Assembly (NCBI GenBank): GCA_965261595.1
Contig: CBDHDG010000005.1
Coordinates: forward strand, 1 to 64,000
Reading direction: 5' to 3'
Length of the DNA stretch: 64,000 nucleotides
DNA from: a bacterium
GTDB lineage: Bacteria; UBA8248; JACPRG01; G963555815
Position numbers: made by a program. The stretch's first letter is position 1, and the number at the start of each line of letters is the position of its first letter. This document shows, piece after piece, positions 21,001 through 27,000 of this stretch.

Positions 21001-24000
21001 GTGACGTTCCGGCCGTTGCTCTGGCCGAGGGATTGGGAAAATAGCGGAATGGCGGGCACCGGCCGGAACGTCGGCCTGGAGTATTTCCGTCCGCCGGTTC
21101 GGGCGTCCATCTGCAACGAAGTCCAGGAATTTGTGAAGGCCGGCGCCAAAAGAGACAGCTGATCGAGTTCCGCATGGGCTTGATCGGAAACACAGATTGT
21201 GGCATACATGAATCTGGTGGAGGAGGCTCGGCCAGTGAGTGAGTCGTCCAGTTTCAAAATATCCGTTTGGAGCGCTTTTGCGCCCCAAACCGATCTGGCT
21301 ATCGATACAGGTTCAGGTGAGCCGCAGGTTCGTGTGGTGGCCAAACAAAGTTCCGGCCTCCATAAGGAAGTATTCGGCTGGCGCATGTCCGAAGATCTTT
21401 TTGCCGGAATCGCCGACGAAAGTGACCGAGACAAACTGAAAGCGGCTTTATTCGACAAGATGGCAATCGACATCGATCCGAATAAACGCTCAATCGATTC
21501 CCTCAAGTCTTTTGTCGATGTGGCTAACGAGATTCTTGACGCCAACCGTGTCGAATGGATCGGAAGCCAAAACCCTTCTGGAGACGATGACGAGAAAGGA
21601 CGCCTGAATCCGCTACTCGCGCTGGTCAATCACCTATCATGGCTGATCGGCATGTTCAAGGACATGCCTAATACATCGATCAGTGTTCGATGATGGCCAA
21701 GAGTCTTACGCCGCCCGCCGATACCGTTGAAGCGGTTGCAGGCCTGTTCGAGCCAAACTCCATTTGCAACCTATCGATACGGGAAGACCGTGCGTTCGGT
21801 CCCTCCGAGTTTCTTTGTCTCGGATCGATAAGACTTTTCCCGGAGGATAACGGTTTAGAGCACCGTGCTCGGGCCGTCCGGCGCGGGGCGTTTGAGTGGC
21901 GCGCGCCCGATGTCGCGGCGGTCAATAAAGAAATTCAGGAAGTCCTCGGCATTAAAGACCTGAAAGAAGAAGCAGGTATCCGGGCAAAGGACAAGGTCCT
22001 GAGAATTCTCGACATGTTCGGCGCCGTTCCGGTCCGTCTTGGTCTGAGTCATCCGATTTTCGATCCCCATGCTCTTGAGGACATGCCGTTTCGCCGACCG
22101 GTAACGGTCGTAAGTGACACGTCGGGCGTCTTGCAGGGCGGCCTCGGCTTTATATCGCGATATTTGCATCCGGCCGCCCGTATCAAGGTACCGGCCGTGA
22201 CGCATATGGAGATTGTTAATTTCGCCGACAGATTTCTTAAAAATAGACGTGCGAGTAAAGTGAAGCGGCCGGACCTCATGATAGATCACCTCAATAGCCA
22301 AGCCGGCCAGAGAGTTCTTGTGCAACTTGAACTGCGTTCGGACGTCGAATTGGAAAGAACCTTCCTGTTAGGCGATCCTTTGAGGGGTTCGTTTCAACAT
22401 GATCAGGACCGGGAACTCAGTCAACTGAATCTCAGTATCCCGATCAAGTCGTACTCAGACCGACTGATTCTGGAAGCCACACGGCAACATCGGTCACAGG
22501 CGGATTCCAGTCATCGGGTCATGTTGCTCACGGGCGACCAAGGTCTAGCGCGCATGGCCATGGCGGAGGGAATAAACTCGATATATTTCCACAGCGCGGG
22601 AGCCGATGCGTTCTTCGGCAAGCGCTTCACGGGAGCGAATTTCCATCCGTTTTCCGAGGAACTTCACACTACGAGTATTCCGGAAATTCTATGGGAACTC
22701 GCCACCATTTCCGGCTGTGCGCGGCTGTCCGCGGAAGATCCCGAACGAAATCTAACGGTTCATGCAATCGGCGAAGACCTTGCATGGGCTCCCTATCATT
22801 CGCAAGACGATCTTCTCTGGGTTGAATTTCCTGACGGTCCAGCGACTTCGTGTGGGCCGGTGGTCCGGAGCGCCGAAGCGACGCTCTCACCGGAGGCCAA
22901 GAGCCACGCCGTCGCGGAAGCGCCCAGCGGAAGCCGAGCCCGCCCGCCCGCCCGTCGGGGACCATTGGGCGAGGGCGGGGCCGCGAAGGCGGCCCTCTAC
23001 AAGTTCAATCTCGGTCGTCTATTCGCCCTGATCGATAAATTGGAAATCCGTCAACAGCTTCCTGTCAACGAAGTTATGACATCGCTTGGCGTTCGCACCG
23101 CAAGCGGACTGAGCGACTATCGTCGTTTCCTGGAGTCGGGCAAAACGATATTCGTGGACGAAGGAAGCTGGTCGGCGGCCCCTCCTCTGAGTCGTATCGC
23201 GGTTGTTCTCCAGAACGCCGATGTCGACGAATTGCGAAAAGAGCTTCGCTTGTTTCCGTCATATGTAGAACTGGAGCGGGTGTTGTCACAGGAAGCTGTC
23301 GGGGGTGCGTTCGATGCGACAACTTTCGGGCGGGCAGCGTATACGTATACGGCCTTGGCGGAGCTTGCGGAGCTTGGTGCATCCGTTCAGGGAAAGGGCT
23401 TTTTCGTCACCCCACGAGATCCCGGCGATGATGAGTTCGCGAAGATCGCCGTATCCGCATATGATCGGTTGGAGCTAGGCGGCAACTGGGTCGCGACGGG
23501 ACGCTGGCTTGAAGAACTGATCGTGAATGATGGAATCCACCCCGTCGTTGCGCGGCGACGGCTGCAATCCGCCGCCAACCATGGCTTGGTCAAGCGCGTT
23601 ACCGAAGGATCGACTACGGAAACCGGGCATGACCTTCAGACACTGAGGACGCTGGCGTTGAAGGACGGTGTCCCGTATGTGAAGGTGGAGTATCTTTACA
23701 GAGGTGATTTCCTCATTCCGGGGAAAGCCAGTTCGAGTTTGAAAATCGAAATGATTGAGACATGAGCCTCCGCGAAAAACTGGGGAGTAAGCAGGGAACC
23801 AGCCGCGATTCTCTTCTGTCGGACTTCGGCGTTCTTTCCAACCCCTTTCCGACTGCGAATCAGACCCTTGATAATCCTCATTATCCTGTACCGAAGGATG
23901 ATGAGGCAGAAGAAAGAATTATTACGTTCCTGCGGGAGATGAAATCCGAAGTCCTGGTTGTTCTCGGCACCCAAGGGGTCGGAAAAACCAATTTCCTCAA

Positions 24001-27000
24001 TTACCTAGACGGGCAAATCCAAGAAGTAAAAGACACACTGGACGGCTACTACATTGTCCGGTATATGGCTGATCCGGAACCGTCCTTCGACGCGACGGTT
24101 CGCATGATCTTTTTGGAATTCGGGATTCCACATCTTAAAAAAATCGCGGAATCTCTATCCAATTCACGCGATGCGTTGTCTACCGTTAGATCCTATGACC
24201 TGAGAGAGGCCCTGTCGGCCCTTTCCGATAATCCTGACGATAACGAACTTCTCGGGCTTTGCCAACAGTGGTTGTTCGGCTCGCGTCTTCTGAAGGCTCA
24301 CAGGAACGGCCTCGGTGTCAACTTTAGGCTGGACACAGTGGAATCACGCACGGCAGCATTACGAGACTATATCATGCTCAGCGCGGAACTGGGATTATTG
24401 AAGGGCATATTCCTTTTGCTTGACGAGTTAGAAAAGCAGGCGGGCGTGCTCGGTCCCACAGCGGTGGTCCGCTACCTGTCGGGTTTACGGGCGATCATGG
24501 ACGCACTTCCGAAGCATCTGTTTATGATCATAGCTGTTACGCCGGACGCGATGCGCAGGTATTCAAGCGCCCTTCCCGCCTTTCGGAGCAGGTTGGAAAA
24601 TCAGATTGAGTTAGAGCCTCTTGCCAATTCCAAAGAGGCAATGGGTTTGGCGAAATTCTATCTGGAGAAAGCGAAGTCGGCGGTTCCCGTGAAGCAAAGG
24701 AAATCGGGCTCGCGAGATTTGGTGACCGAGCCAGAGATGTTAAATATTTTTAACGATTCAATGAAGTTATCGAAACGCCGCGGCGACGACGGTGTTCGGC
24801 AGCGAGAATTTCTGAACGGGCTACACGACATCGCGGAAAAGAAAATTCAAAAACGTGTGTGACCGGGTTGACAGGGACGGCTCCGTCATCGATTCAGGAT
24901 GGCTGCGCGCGCCCCTCACGCATCAGTAATACCAAACTGAACTGGCAATGCACGGCAGGTTTATGCGGTTGCGTTGGGGGCGGTAGCCCAACAGCGGTAC
25001 ATAATGGAGGCGATCCGGTCGATCAGCCGATCCCGGGATCGGGGCGATCGGGCGCCAATTCGTCCAGCCTGGGGCCGAAGACACGCTTGAAATCCAGCAG
25101 TTTGTCGATCATCCAATCTTCTATTTCTTTCAGCGTCTCCGAGTCGCCGTCAATGCTACCTTGGCGCACGACCGCAATGCGGCTCGCCCTGTGATCGTCC
25201 AGGCGTTCCCAATTCAAGCGATTCCGAGAGTTCGGATTCGATGGATTCTTTTCGTTCCATGAGGCGGTCGAACAGAATCTTGTTCCAATCCCTATCGGTG
25301 TTATCGATATAAACTTCAATCCTGGCTCTTTTCTCTTGAACGAAAGTAGCGCCGTATTGAACGCGTTGCGCATGCCCCGCCGAGAAGTAGTACCAACTTT
25401 GAAGCTGCGCCTTGCGCACATTCGTGAATCCTCGCTCTCTGAGCGCGTCCATGATTTCCTGCAAAAAACGCTTGGTAGCGAAGGTTCTTATCCGAGTCCC
25501 CAAGCCAAGGAGTGAAATCGGCGGCCTCGTGCGGCCAAGCCTCACGGAGGTCGGCCTTTTCGATGCGACCAAGTCCCGCCGTTTCCGTCATTGTTCTCTC
25601 CCTCCCTTTCGGTTTTCCATCGAACGCATGCGGTTCAGTAGCCGGGTGTTTCTCGACGGCCGGCTTCATTTCGAGGCATCTTCCAGGATCGTCGCCTGGG
25701 TCTCCCGGGCCAATTTTATCATCTCGTCGAGTTCGTCGCCGCGCCCTTCGCGGAGCATTTCATCGCGTTTGAGGGTCGCAACGATGTACGTGCTTCGATA
25801 GATGCGCTCGATCAGCGCGACGATTCCTAGCGGCATCACGGTGGGGTCCGCGATGTTCTTGTTCCGGGCGAGGTTCAGAGCGGCATCGCGGACAAACTCG
25901 GCAGCCGGGATTTTATGCTCTGCTGCCGCCGTTTTGACCCGTTCCCACTCGGAATCCGAGAACCGGATTGCCCGCGGCGTGCGCGTGTCGGTCTGCTTTT
26001 CGTCTGGAGTCGCGCCGGTTTCAGCGTCAGTTCGCTCGTTTTCGCTCATGGTTTTCTCTCTCCGGGTCGCGGTTTTCGTTCGGAAATGCACAGATTTCCC
26101 CAGGGAACGGAAGCGGTTCCGTGCTCCACAGCGTCTAATCCCCGTATATCGGTGCAGCATACACGGCCGTCACAACTGCGACATGAGCGTATACCGGTCG
26201 TATGCCGGTCAGAAACAAAATACAGCAATATCAATGTTTTAGACTCGTATATCGGTACGGCATACGCTCGATCCAACAACACCGGGGCAGCTATTGGTGC
26301 CGTTTGCGCGGGAAACGGGATGACAAGCGCGCACCTAGATGCGAGGGCATCAACGATGCGTGGGGTGTGAGAGTAAAAGCGCCGACCGGCGTCCGACAGA
26401 CCAAAATGTGAGGAACGAGCGAAGAGGGGATCTCCGCGGGCGCGTGACGCGCGGGGGAGCCGCCGCGGCGATTGAGCGGGCGGCCGTGCGGAGCACAGTG
26501 CATGGAGCGGTGCAGGACGGATTGAGCAGTGGGGTCCGCACCGGTGCGGTGCACAGTGCAGCGGGACGTGAAGGAAGGAAGAACGGGCCGCGCCGCCGGG
26601 TGGCGACGCGACCCGCGAGGTCGTTCGACTCAGGCGGCGACGCACTGGACCGGGATACCGAGCTTGCGCGCCTTGTCGACCAGATTGTCGGTGATGCCCG
26701 AGCCCGGGAACGCGATGACGCCCTTGGGGAGGAGATCGAGCAGCTCGTCATTGCGCCGGAAGGGCGCCGCGCGTCCGTGTGCGTCCCAGTTGGGCTTGCA
26801 GACGATCTGGTGGACGCCGTTGCGGTCCGCCCACTTGGCCGCGATCTTCTCGACGCCGGGACCACCGCCGTGGACCAGGACCACATCGTCGTACTTGGCC
26901 TTGAGCTTCTCGAGGGTGCGGATGATGGCGCCTGCGTCGCCGGTCTGCTTGCCGCCTGCCACCGCGACGAGCGTTCCCTGGGGCAGGAGCGCCTTGTTCT

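What a model noticed while it worked through the whole genome (the two positions that open the first line are those of the whole stretch)
21235..24862. A conserved three-gene cassette (small Trp-rich protein, PIN nuclease with winged helices, ORC/Cdc6-like AAA+ ATPase) in [...]
g01879 (152 aa), g01880 (691 aa) and g01881 (366 aa) fill the cargo slot of one copy of the conjugative element. They match no PADLOC-DB v2 model and no Pfam family at gathering cut-offs except a weak BrxC_BrxD hit on g01881. The three genes form a fixed operon spread over many phyla (Alpha-, Beta-, Gammaproteobacteria, Nostocales, Spirochaetia, Acidobacteriota, Binatia, Nitrospinota ...) in changing neighbourhoods; a Binatia genome carries the same 4-kb cassette at 89.7% nt identity with unrelated flanks. 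Models: g01880 = N-terminal domain + SMG6/Nmd4-type PIN nuclease with four invariant acidic residues (D143, E174, D257, D283) + winged helices; g01881 = ORC/Cdc6/TnsC-like AAA+ ATPase with [...]
Evidence so far: PADLOC: 0 families for the three; Pfam at E<=0.01: PIN_4 3e-4 (below cut), BrxC_BrxD 1.5e-6. 364 homologs of g01880 at E<=1e-5. 80 loci in genome_contigs: the small protein directly upstream in 74 of 80, the ATPase directly downstream in 77 of 80 (of the 3 without, 2 loci end inside the PIN gene, 1 holds a truncated one). Binatia locus: only C5:21040-25047 matches, 89.65% over 4011 nt. Flanks by blastx against this genome: Hma-type genes in 4 loci, R-M genes in 2, relaxase in 2, integrase or transposase in 7, else housekeeping. 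AlphaFold2 pLDDT 78.6 and 83.9; Foldseek PDB: PIN of SMG6 2hwx, Nmd4 8rd3, 5f4h, 9jxx (E 2e-4 to 2e-3); ORC2 1w5t, Cdc6/Orc1 2qby, TnsC 9g0f, RdrA 8hr8 (E 2e-5 to 4e- [...]
(Added by a program. Inside this text positions count along the whole contig: contig position 1 is position 1 of the stretch shown here. "Call 12" and the like, gene names such as g00115 and contig names such as C1 are that model's own, and its searches are not shown. The text may have been shortened before it was handed on; [...] marks where a part breaks off. The agent that wrote the report below was given it as the finding of a first reader that could run no searches.)

Follow-up and report, generated by a model that had tools for sequence, protein, structure and literature searches.

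The report
Unnamed PIN-nuclease/ATPase three-gene defence candidate
Three tightly coupled genes (a small acidic protein, a large PIN-nuclease protein and a BREX-type ATPase) form a rare, horizontally moving cassette that sits in the cargo slot of a conjugative element and is probably an undescribed anti-phage or anti-plasmid immune system, though nobody has tested it.

Summary
The three ORFs are real: A 21235-21693 (152 aa), B 21690-23765 (691 aa), C 23762-24862 (366 aa), with 4-nt overlaps, in a 52-57% GC island within ~70% GC DNA. These include the Pfam and PADLOC results, the 364 homologues, the invariant DEDD tetrad, and the Binatia match of 89.653% over 4011 nt.

A-B-C is a fixed unit. 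A lies upstream in 45 of 48 genome loci and C downstream in 47 of 48. No fourth gene is conserved.

In this genome the cassette is single-copy cargo, directly after the relaxase gene of a multi-copy conjugative element. A paralogous slot holds Druantia III.

Elsewhere 17 of 48 loci have strong known defence genes within 4.5 kb. Three cassettes lie inside BREX type 3, Hma or Ssp clusters. A small matched control gave 3 of 15 against 22 of 48 (one-sided p = 0.066), so enrichment is only suggestive.

No named system matches.

Verdict: credible, untested, unnamed ATPase-nuclease defence candidate.

The parts
21040..21234 (+). Conserved leader or promoter region that travels with the cassette
   Evidence: The stretch shared with the Binatia locus L001 starts at 21040. 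It has no Rfam family and no significant fold, z -1.05. A GAGGAGG ribosome-binding site lies at 21220-21226.
21235..21693 (+). Gene A: 152-aa acidic protein of no known family
   Evidence: No Pfam, PADLOC, NCBIfam or PHROGs hit. No PDB relative by profile. W12, P82, R85, W136 and P145 are invariant in 36 homologues. Net charge is -7, and negative in 35 of 36 homologues. It is the fastest-evolving of the three, with mean pairwise identity 36.6%. It lies directly upstream of B in 45 of 48 loci.
21690..23765 (+). Gene B: 691-aa multi-domain protein. N-domain (1-130), PIN nuclease domain (about 131-300), variable linker (386-445), conserved C-terminal half (446-691)
   Evidence: PIN_4 is the only Pfam family and is hit by 29 of 33 homologues at E<=0.01. 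The DEDD tetrad D143/E174/D257/D283 is kept in 67 of 67 loci. Domain-wise identity is PIN 68%, linker 16%, C-terminal parts 38-53%. The C-terminal motifs EGSTTE and LYRGDYLIPGKSS are conserved. The family is rare: 334 representatives at E<=1e-3 among 1.84 billion.
22080..22589 (+). PIN catalytic domain within B (residues about 131-300)
   Evidence: The Pfam PIN_4 stretch covers residues 154-298. The DTSG, MEIVN, YADRLILEA and LLTSDQGLARMA motifs are invariant or nearly so.
23762..24862 (+). Gene C: 366-aa AAA+ ATPase of the BrxC_BrxD (DUF2791) / Orc1-like group
   Evidence: Pfam BrxC_BrxD scores 27.9 bits against a cut-off of 22.2. Many homologues carry precomputed PF10923, PF13191 or PF01637, and one UniRef name reads 'Orc1-like AAA ATPase domain'. 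Walker A GTQGVGKT, Walker B LLLDELEK, R266 and R277 are invariant and kept in 75 of 77 loci. The N-terminal MSLRDRL and NPFP motifs are conserved. C is the most conserved of the three at 53.4%.
24863..25047 (+). Conserved 3' tail of the mobile segment
   Evidence: The stretch shared with L001 ends at 25047.
17571..20555 (+). Context: TrwC-type relaxase gene of the conjugative element. The variable cargo slot begins near its 3' end (about 20440)
   Evidence: Pfam TrwC 4.5e-85 plus AAA_30. Three other genome copies at 95-96% identity stop matching at window position about 20440.
25156..25669 (-). Context: remnant of a DUF4268 / PDC-S11-like gene in two frames, at the right edge of the slot
   Evidence: ORFs 25156-25572 and 25316-25669 lie in different frames. 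DUF4268 scores 5.7e-13. The match is to the C-terminal part of PDC-S11, 1.1e-11. Similarity to other element copies resumes at about 25496-25661.

Best explanation
A-B-C is an autonomous, horizontally mobile three-protein immune module of the 'NTPase plus nuclease effector' kind.

SHOWN
- The three genes are translationally coupled and are inherited together.
- B keeps a complete PIN metal-nuclease site.
- C keeps a complete AAA+ ATP-hydrolysis site of the BrxC/BrxD (Orc1-like) group.
- The unit moves between phyla and often lands among, or inside, known defence systems.

INFERRED MECHANISM
- C is the ATP-driven switch or sensor. It assembles on an infection cue, either a nucleic acid or a phage/plasmid protein.
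- This licenses B. B's conserved C-terminal half holds the complex on nucleic acid, and its PIN domain cuts invader or host RNA, or structured DNA. The result is either clearance of the invader or abortive infection.
- The small acidic, fast-evolving protein A is a regulatory subunit. It is most likely an inhibitor or specificity factor that keeps B silent until the system is triggered.

The target (RNA or DNA), the trigger and the role of A are not shown.
For: UNIT
- 4-nt overlaps in the window. B-C overlap by 4 nt in 24 of 26 loci and A-B overlap by 4 nt in 16 of 26.
- A is present in 45 of 48 loci and C in 47 of 48, and no fourth gene is conserved.
- B is upstream of C in 20 of 21 metagenome loci.
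- The distance matrices of A, B and C correlate at r 0.87-0.92, Mantel p 0.001.

ACTIVE SITES
- DEDD in 67 of 67 loci; K/T, D/E, R, R of the ATPase in 75 of 77.
- PIN_4 in 29 of 33 homologues.
- BrxC_BrxD above its Pfam cut-off.

MOBILITY AND ACCESSORY STATUS
- 89.65% nucleotide identity to a Binatia locus with unrelated flanks.
- Not found in 80 of 80 relatives.
- GC lower than the flanks in 37 of 41 loci.
- Phyla intermixed in the B tree.
- Decayed copies in L020, L031, L032, L040 and L048.

DEFENCE CONTEXT
- Cargo slot of a conjugative element. A sister slot holds Druantia III (DruE E=0, DruH 2e-41) and an OLD-like fragment.
- Inside BREX type 3 in L041, between HmaB and HmaA in L045, and between SspH and SspD/SspC in L004.
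- Directly next to HmaB+helicase (L037), HmaC (L038), PglXI (L044), type II R-M (L022), type IIG (L047) and TmtA (L021).
- 17 of 48 loci have strong hits.
- 'Guilt by embedding' in Hma systems has been validated experimentally for other cassettes (Payne et al. preprint 10.1101/2024.01.29.577857, passages read).
Against: - No experiment exists, and no RNA run holding the stretch was listed.
- Matched control: 3 of 15 random regions from five of the same genomes also carry a PADLOC hit, against 22 of 48 cassette loci by the same rule. Odds ratio 3.4, one-sided p = 0.066. These genomes are defence-rich, so the enrichment is not established.
- 26 of 48 loci show no PADLOC neighbour at all, and several have plain housekeeping neighbours (only 111 of the 328 flank ORFs were scanned with Pfam).
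- No relative was found in 72,556 plasmids, 50,697 phage records or IMG/VR viral contigs, although defence genes often ride on such elements.
- The fold of every domain is unverified here. Neither binding among A, B and C nor the roles assigned to them have been tested.
Confidence: 0.6

Rival explanations
1. Toxin-antitoxin-like addiction or stabilisation module of mobile elements. A is the antitoxin of the PIN toxin B, and C is an accessory chaperone or regulator. The main role would be to keep the conjugative element or island in the genome, not to stop phages.
For: The gene order, a small acidic protein followed by a PIN protein, resembles antitoxin-toxin pairs. In this genome it sits on a conjugative element. 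The fast evolution of A fits an antitoxin. Decayed copies are common.
Against: B is 691 aa with three further conserved regions, not a VapC-size toxin of about 140 aa. A matches no antitoxin or DNA-binding family. The ATPase is the most conserved and a strictly linked partner. There is no relative on 72,556 plasmids. Most loci are chromosomal, and in the 17 loci scanned with Pfam most lack mobile-element genes within 4.5 kb.
Confidence: 0.13
2. Accessory or backup module of methylation- or phosphorothioate-based systems (BREX type 3, Hma, Ssp, R-M). It would act only together with them, for example a BrxD-like ATPase and nuclease that fire when the host system is inhibited or when modified phage DNA escapes it.
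For: C belongs to the BrxC_BrxD Pfam family. 6 of 48 loci carry BREX type 3 or Hma genes within 4.5 kb, and three cassettes are flanked on both sides by parts of one system. Earlier scan notes describe related methylase + wHTH + BrxD-like ATPase + PIN cassettes and a PIN + AAA+ module next to dnd genes (unchecked leads).
Against: 42 of 48 loci have no BREX or Hma gene within 4.5 kb. In this genome the cassette stands alone in its slot, and the genome's HmaB lies about 730 kb away. In the related genomes L041 and L044 the cassette takes different positions relative to the BREX genes. hhalign of C against the BrxC and SspC N-termini matches only the P-loop, probability 2%.
Confidence: 0.12
3. 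Not immunity at all: an RNA-processing or quality-control, or DNA-repair, module that spreads horizontally (housekeeping-like accessory function), or a module serving conjugative DNA processing.
For: Many loci have transporters, dehydrogenases and other housekeeping genes as neighbours. LexA-like or UmuD-like genes lie beside it in L001 and L005. In the window it follows the relaxase gene. The control shows that the defence association is not statistically secured.
Against: It was not found in 80 of 80 relatives, including 6 of the same family. It is rare, about 48 loci among 185,579 species genomes scanned. Its GC is foreign. It is single-copy while the conjugative element has at least 8 copies without it. 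Relaxase or NikA neighbours were seen only in L016 among the 17 loci scanned with Pfam.
Confidence: 0.12
4. Self-mobile element: a TnsC/IstB-like ATPase with a nuclease acting as a transposition machine that moves the 4-kb segment.
For: The same 4.0-kb segment occurs at 89.65% identity in another phylum with unrelated flanks. AAA+ ATPases of this broad clade serve Tn7, Mu and IS21 (stated in PMC10853773, passages read).
Against: There are no terminal inverted or direct repeats at the segment ends. No transposase or integrase family was found in A, B or C. There is one copy per genome in all 6 genomes checked. PIN nucleases are not known transposases (my own knowledge).
Confidence: 0.03

Closest known systems
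HEC-03 (Hma-embedded candidate 3; Payne et al. preprint 10.1101/2024.01.29.577857, passages read)
   Same: An ATPase gene is paired with a PIN-domain effector gene. It was found embedded in Hma systems and was experimentally protective, with both genes required.
   Different: HEC-03 has two genes, an ABC-type ATPase and a VapC-like small PIN protein. Here there are three genes, an AAA+ ATPase of the BrxC_BrxD group and a 691-aa PIN protein with extra domains. The PADLOC library, which contains HEC models (they matched neighbouring ORFs), returned no HEC hit for A, B or C.
BrxD, the stand-alone ORC/Cdc6-class AAA+ ATPase of BREX type 2 (Rakesh and Krishnan, NAR 2026, PMC12839542, passages read)
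   Same: C is a small stand-alone ATPase that scores above the Pfam BrxC_BrxD cut-off. It has an intact Walker A, Walker B and arginine residues.
   Different: BrxD is described as tightly paired with the BrxHI helicase inside BREX type 2. C is paired with a PIN protein and a small acidic protein, and usually no BREX gene is nearby. The Pfam match covers only profile positions 160-323 of 414.
Menshen (NsnABC; PMC12065111, passages read)
   Same: It follows a three-gene sensor, ATPase and nuclease-effector logic, and its effector carries a PIN-like domain.
   Different: Menshen uses a ParB-DUF262 sensor, an ABC ATPase and an inactive PIN fused to a BECR RNase. Here the PIN keeps its DEDD site, the ATPase is AAA+, and no Nsn model matches.
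Methylase + wHTH protein + BrxD-like ATPase + PIN cassettes, and a DNA-binding + PIN + AAA+ module beside dnd genes, noted earlier in this scan (e1-4889482, e1-5218453, e1-1199761, AI notes not checked by me)
   Same: The parts list is the same: a small BrxD/ORC-like ATPase, a PIN nuclease and a DNA-recognition part. They are also mobile and lie among defence genes.
   Different: This cassette has no methylase. The PIN and the putative nucleic-acid-binding half are fused in one protein, and there is an extra small acidic protein. No word-level sequence similarity to those windows was found.
PhoAT-PhoH2 (a PIN domain fused to a PhoH ATPase, preceded by a small ORF; recalled from memory, no call)
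   Same: It combines a small upstream protein, a PIN nuclease and a P-loop ATPase acting on nucleic acid. Pfam PIN_4 is, as I recall, the family that covers such PINs.
   Different: In PhoH2 the PIN and ATPase are fused, and the ATPase is PhoH-type, not AAA+. No homology was tested here.

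Membership tests
PIN domain nucleases (Pfam PIN_4, PF13638) | Four conserved acidic metal-binding residues (D-E-D-D) | tested here: met
   D143, E174, D257 and D283 are invariant in 33 of 33 homologues and in 67 of 67 loci.
PIN domain nucleases (Pfam PIN_4, PF13638) | Score at or above the Pfam gathering cut-off | tested here: inconclusive
   The window protein scores 21.5 bits against a cut-off of 21.9. 29 of 33 homologues match at E<=0.01, the best at 9.4e-6. Some homologues carry a precomputed PF13638.
PIN domain nucleases (Pfam PIN_4, PF13638) | PIN fold (three-layer alpha/beta/alpha) and likeness to SMG6/Nmd4 | not testable with these tools
A profile search of the PDB with the PIN region found nothing.
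BrxC_BrxD / ORC-Cdc6-class AAA+ ATPases | Pfam PF10923 above the gathering cut-off | tested here: met
   27.9 bits against 22.2, with partial coverage of profile positions 160-323 of 414. PF10923 is precomputed on many homologues.
BrxC_BrxD / ORC-Cdc6-class AAA+ ATPases | Walker A, Walker B, and the sensor and arginine-finger residues | tested here: met
   GTQGVGKT, LLLDELEK, T260-P261, R266 and R277 are invariant or nearly so and kept in 75 of 77 loci. The best PDB alignment (8g28, E 0.04) pairs Walker B with the RSR motif.
BrxC_BrxD / ORC-Cdc6-class AAA+ ATPases | Helix-extension-helix insert after strand 2, and the C-terminal helical lid | not testable with these tools
   The sequence only shows about 140 residues between Walker A and Walker B, which suggests a large insert. 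No model could be made.
BREX type 2 BrxD proper | Linked to the BrxHI helicase, PglW, PglX and PglZ | tested here: not met
   BREX or Hma genes lie within 4.5 kb in only 6 of 48 loci, and those are type 3 or Hma-like. None is present in the window slot.
HEC-03 / other PADLOC v2 systems | Match to the system's protein models | tested here: not met
   A and B have 0 families at E<=1. C has only mad8 5e-4, DpdH 0.015 and PtuA 0.02, all over the P-loop.
VapBC-type type II toxin-antitoxin | Two genes: a small DNA-binding antitoxin and a VapC of about 130-150 aa | tested here: not met
   There are three genes, B is 691 aa, and A matches no family.
Tn7/Mu/IS21-like transposition modules | Transposase gene and terminal repeats | tested here: not met
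   There is no transposase family in the cassette and no terminal repeats around 21040-25047.
Archaeal/eukaryotic Orc1/Cdc6 initiators | C-terminal winged-helix DNA-binding domain on the ATPase | tested here: inconclusive
   C ends about 80 residues after the arginine motif and has no further domain hit. This was not tested structurally.

The most novel reading that the evidence does not exclude
A methylation-independent 'licensed nuclease' immune system. An Orc1/BrxD-type AAA+ ATPase assembles on invader nucleic acid, or on a phage inhibitor of BREX/Hma/Ssp. It then releases a nucleic-acid-tethered PIN nuclease from an acidic, nucleic-acid-mimicking inhibitor subunit (A). Its recurrent nesting inside methylation- and phosphorothioate-based systems would then mean that it is a second-line guard, firing when those systems are evaded or blocked.
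Probability: 0.15. Interest if true: 0.75.

Novelty: new variant of a known kind. Interest (0 to 1): 0.58.

Why it matters
If it protects, it adds a new three-protein architecture to bacterial immunity: an active PIN nuclease fused to a large unknown nucleic-acid-binding half, a BrxD-like AAA+ switch, and a small acidic partner. It would also give a compact handle on what BrxD/BrxC-type ATPases actually do, a question that papers on BREX still describe as unresolved (PMC12839542, passages read).

It also documents two places to look for further systems. One is the cargo slot after the relaxase gene of a multi-copy conjugative element. The other is the interior of BREX type 3, Hma and Ssp operons.

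Tried and rejected
- Profile searches of PDB sequences found nothing significant. They covered whole A, B and C and the N-terminal, PIN and C-terminal parts of B.
- ESM Atlas, protein A: best score 0.87 to tail-assembly-chaperone clusters, which is chance level.
- ESM Atlas, B residues 440-691: unnamed clusters at 0.90-0.92. Named leads reach only 0.76-0.78 (wHTH, FokI recognition domain, DpdG, AAA_assoc_C) and are too weak to use.
- PHROGs and NCBIfam gave nothing.
- tblastn of B against plasmids and phages gave no match.
- Viral contigs hold no relative of C.
- No fused forms of A were found; this is weak evidence.
- hhalign of C against the BrxC and SspC N-termini matched only the P-loop.
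- Rfam, a fold of the leader, the promoter/terminator scan and the repeat search gave no regulatory RNA, no significant structure and no terminal repeats.
- Sequencing runs: no RNA holder is listed.
- Contigs of three studies cover the cassette with the same unique flanks (about 20.3-25.2 kb) at 99-100% identity. That is the same element, not an independent context.
- Literature: 7 full-text searches, with passages read in 9 papers. No description of this architecture was found.
- The supplements of PMC12839542, which may list PIN-containing BREX neighbourhoods, could not be read.
- Earlier scan notes by place and by sequence returned nothing.

Full report
WHAT IS THERE

Three ORFs on the + strand fill 21235-24862.
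- A runs 21235-21693 (152 aa). It has a GTG start 8 nt after a GAGGAGG site.
- B runs 21690-23765 (691 aa).
- C runs 23762-24862 (366 aa).
- Each junction is an ATGA overlap.
- The segment has 52-57% GC in a window that is otherwise about 70% GC.

The three proteins are in the big protein collection, but no source gives them a name.

FAMILY ASSIGNMENTS

- A matches nothing in Pfam, PADLOC, NCBIfam or PHROGs.
- B matches only PIN_4, at 21.5 bits and just under the 21.9 cut-off. PIN_4 is also the only family hit by its relatives, 29 of 33 at E<=0.01.
- The four acidic residues D143, E174, D257 and D283 are invariant in my 33-sequence alignment. They are also invariant in all 67 loci that cover them.
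- C scores 27.9 bits on BrxC_BrxD (cut-off 22.2) over part of the profile. Many relatives carry PF10923, PF13191 or PF01637, and one UniRef name reads 'Orc1-like AAA ATPase domain'.
- C has an invariant Walker A (GTQGVGKT), Walker B (LLLDELEK), R266 and R277. It also has a conserved N-terminal MSLRDRL...NPFP extension.
- About 140 residues separate Walker A from Walker B. This suggests a large insert, as in the initiator/BrxC group, but I could not model it.

A has only 4 tryptophans, two of them invariant. Its more striking property is net negative charge: -7 here, and negative in 35 of 36 homologues.

Conservation rises from A (36.6% mean pairwise identity) to B (48.1%) to C (53.4%). Within B the PIN domain is the most conserved part (68%) and a linker at 386-445 the least (16%).

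No solved structure is detectable by sequence profile for any protein or sub-domain.

A FIXED UNIT

In 48 loci from one-genome-per-species contigs:
- A lies directly upstream of B in 45. The misses are L039, which starts inside B, and L032 and L034, where the 5' part is missing or diverged.
- C lies directly downstream in 47. The miss is L031, where B is truncated.
- Clustering all flank ORFs found no further gene shared by more than 4 loci.

Further points:
- Seeding with C instead, in metagenome contigs, B was upstream in 20 of the 21 loci that have at least 2.1 kb of upstream DNA. The exception, L109, is a distant C relative at 26% identity with other partners.
- B-C overlap by 4 nt in 24 of 26 loci, and A-B by 4 nt in 16 of 26.
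- The pairwise distance matrices of the three proteins correlate at r 0.87-0.92, Mantel p 0.001, in 40 cassettes. This shows joint inheritance, not binding.
- Five loci are decayed: an insertion, frameshifts or truncation in L020, L031, L032, L040 and L048.

RARE, ACCESSORY, HORIZONTALLY MOVED

- A full HMM search of 1.84 billion representatives found 334 proteins at E<=1e-3 and 195 at E<=1e-30. All are of the same roughly 690-aa build or are fragments of it.
- B was not found in any of 80 relatives of this genome, including 6 of the same family.
- It is single-copy in the 6 genomes checked.
- The Binatia locus matches window 21040-25047 at 89.653% over 4011 nt and nowhere else.
- Cassette GC is at least 3 points below its flanks in 37 of 41 loci and never above.
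- In a quick maximum-likelihood tree of B, phyla are intermixed. One example is a fully supported clade of Binatia, Acidobacteriota and Spirochaetota rows. The tree needs 8 label changes where 3 is the minimum.
- No terminal repeats bound the segment, so nothing suggests that it moves by itself.

CONTEXT IN THIS GENOME

- Upstream lie TraH, TraG (split by an IS1595-family insertion), a TrwB/TraD coupling protein and a TrwC relaxase. Downstream lie a DUF4268 remnant, a YAcAr SLOG protein and a Toprim/DUF7146 protein.
- The relaxase 3' end occurs in at least 8 copies in the genome. Three copies at 95-96% identity stop matching at window position about 20440.
- The downstream backbone resumes at about 25496-25661, or at 26357 in other copies.
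- The cassette therefore occupies a variable cargo slot.
- In one sister copy (L058) that slot holds Druantia III (DruE3 E=0, DruH3 2e-41) and an OLD-like fragment. In another (L059) it holds PDC-S11, AriA/GajA-like and DrmC-like pieces.

CONTEXT ELSEWHERE

I scanned 328 greedy ORFs of at least 115 aa lying within 4.5 kb of the cassette in the 48 loci against PADLOC. Seventeen loci have strong, specific neighbours:

| Locus | Neighbour |
|---|---|
| L004 | between SspH and SspD/SspC |
| L017 | DrmMI/type IIG and LmuB-like |
| L018 | PD-T7-1 |
| L019 | HmaB |
| L021 | TmtA and a PDC-S35/TIR gene |
| L022 | type II R-M |
| L024 | PDC-S47 |
| L028 | type IV enzyme |
| L032 | PDC-S01 |
| L035 | DpdF |
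| L036 | type I enzyme |
| L037 | HmaB and helicase |
| L038 | HmaC and PDC-M55ABC |
| L041 | inside BREX type 3, between BrxH and PglZ, with PglXI and BrxC around |
| L044 | PglXI |
| L045 | between HmaB and HmaA |
| L047 | type IIG and HKD-Snf2 |

Nesting inside Hma systems is the criterion by which Payne et al. found protective systems, HEC-03 (ABC ATPase + VapC-like PIN) among them (passages).

Against this, I ran a control with the same ORF rule. It used 15 evenly spaced regions in five of the same genomes. It gave PADLOC hits at E<=1e-12 in 3 of 15 regions, against 22 of 48 cassette loci by the same any-hit rule. The odds ratio is 3.4 and the one-sided p is 0.066. The association is suggestive, not established.

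Pfam on the first 111 flank ORFs shows many plain housekeeping neighbours, and mobile-element genes in 4-5 of 17 loci.

B has no relative in PLSDB plasmids or GenBank phages, and C has none in IMG/VR viral contigs.

HOW IT MOST LIKELY WORKS

What is shown is a co-inherited, translationally coupled trio with an intact PIN site and an intact AAA+ site. The rest is inferred by analogy with other ATPase-nuclease defence systems.
- C acts as an ATP-driven sensor or switch.
- B is the effector. Its C-terminal half tethers it to nucleic acid.
- A, which is acidic and fast-evolving, is an inhibitor or specificity subunit.
- The target (RNA or DNA), the trigger, and whether the outcome is abortive infection are all open.

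The rivals are a TA-like addiction module, an accessory of BREX/Hma/Ssp systems, a non-immune nucleic-acid function, and a self-mobile element. Their evidence is given in the Rival explanations section.

COMPARISON WITH WHAT IS KNOWN

- It is not HEC-03, not Menshen and not any other PADLOC v2 system (no model matches).
- It is not BrxD proper, because it lacks the BrxHI/BREX type 2 linkage.
- It is not a VapBC pair and not a transposon module.
- DefensePredictor's PIN systems DS-3 and DS-5 have no ATPase (passages).
- Seven full-text searches found no description of this architecture.
- The supplements of the BREX-diversity paper, which may list PIN-containing neighbourhoods, could not be read.
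- DefenseFinder and PADLOC releases newer than PADLOC v2.0.0 were not available.
- Earlier notes of this scan describe cassettes with the same parts list plus a methylase. These are unchecked leads, and no sequence similarity to them was found.

VERDICT

This is a real, rare, mobile three-gene cassette with the anatomy and much of the neighbourhood of an immune system. It is unnamed as far as I could search, and it is untested. I file it as a new variant of the ATPase-plus-nuclease kind of defence system, with confidence 0.6 and moderate to good interest.

Noticed in passing
window 10187-14886: The traG-like gene is split. Its TraG_N N-terminal part lies at 10187-10876 and its C-terminal part at 12820-14886. 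Between them is a low-GC insert (52-54% GC at 11-13 kb) carrying an IS1595-family transposase at 11071-11961.
   Followed up: partly
window 25156-25669 (-): A DUF4268 / PDC-S11-like gene is present only as a remnant in two frames, directly downstream of the cassette. A sister element copy (L059:419-892) carries the N-terminal part of the same candidate defence gene.
   Followed up: partly
window 20533-20554, 20748-20769, 21059-21080; 21003-21072: The last 22 nt of the relaxase gene are repeated 215 nt downstream (86% identity) and, more weakly (73%), at the left edge of the mobile segment. A 17-nt inverted repeat straddles that edge at 21040. These may be scars of successive insertions into the slot.
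   Followed up: no
own genome, L058 = G000:C7:1343000-1360900: The conjugative-element backbone occurs in at least 8 copies in the 6.17-Mb genome. The slot of one sister copy holds a Druantia type III system (DruH3 at L058:863-4108, DruE3 at 4108-10149) and an OLD-like fragment.
   Followed up: partly
window 57814-57899 (-): A c-di-GMP-I riboswitch aptamer scores above the Rfam gathering threshold (44.6 bits, E 1.8e-5).
   Followed up: no
own genome G000:C5:752981-758373 (outside the window): The genome's HmaB methylase matches as two halves, profile positions 8-490 and 482-958, separated by about 2.6 kb. The gene is either split or has something inserted in it.
   Followed up: no
L109:4997-7875: This is a distant relative of ATPase C: 26% identity, hhalign probability 98.8%, and it keeps the NPFP motif and the Walker motifs. 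It is coupled by 4-nt overlap to a 310-aa upstream protein that is not detectably like B, and is followed by a 222-aa ORF. So C-like ATPases also exist with other partners.
   Followed up: partly
proteins P0228 and P0195: P0228 reads through from the end of B into the start of C, an apparent B-C fusion in one low-quality metagenomic protein. P0195, a divergent 805-aa homologue with a long Lys/Ala-rich linker, has Asn at the D283 position.
   Followed up: no
L001:6344-7045 (-) and L005:5815-6782 (-): A LexA-like repressor (S24 peptidase plus LexA DNA-binding domain) lies divergently upstream of the Binatia copy of the cassette. UmuD/ImpB-like genes lie beside the Sphingomonas copy. This could be an SOS link or simply mobile-element baggage.
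   Followed up: no
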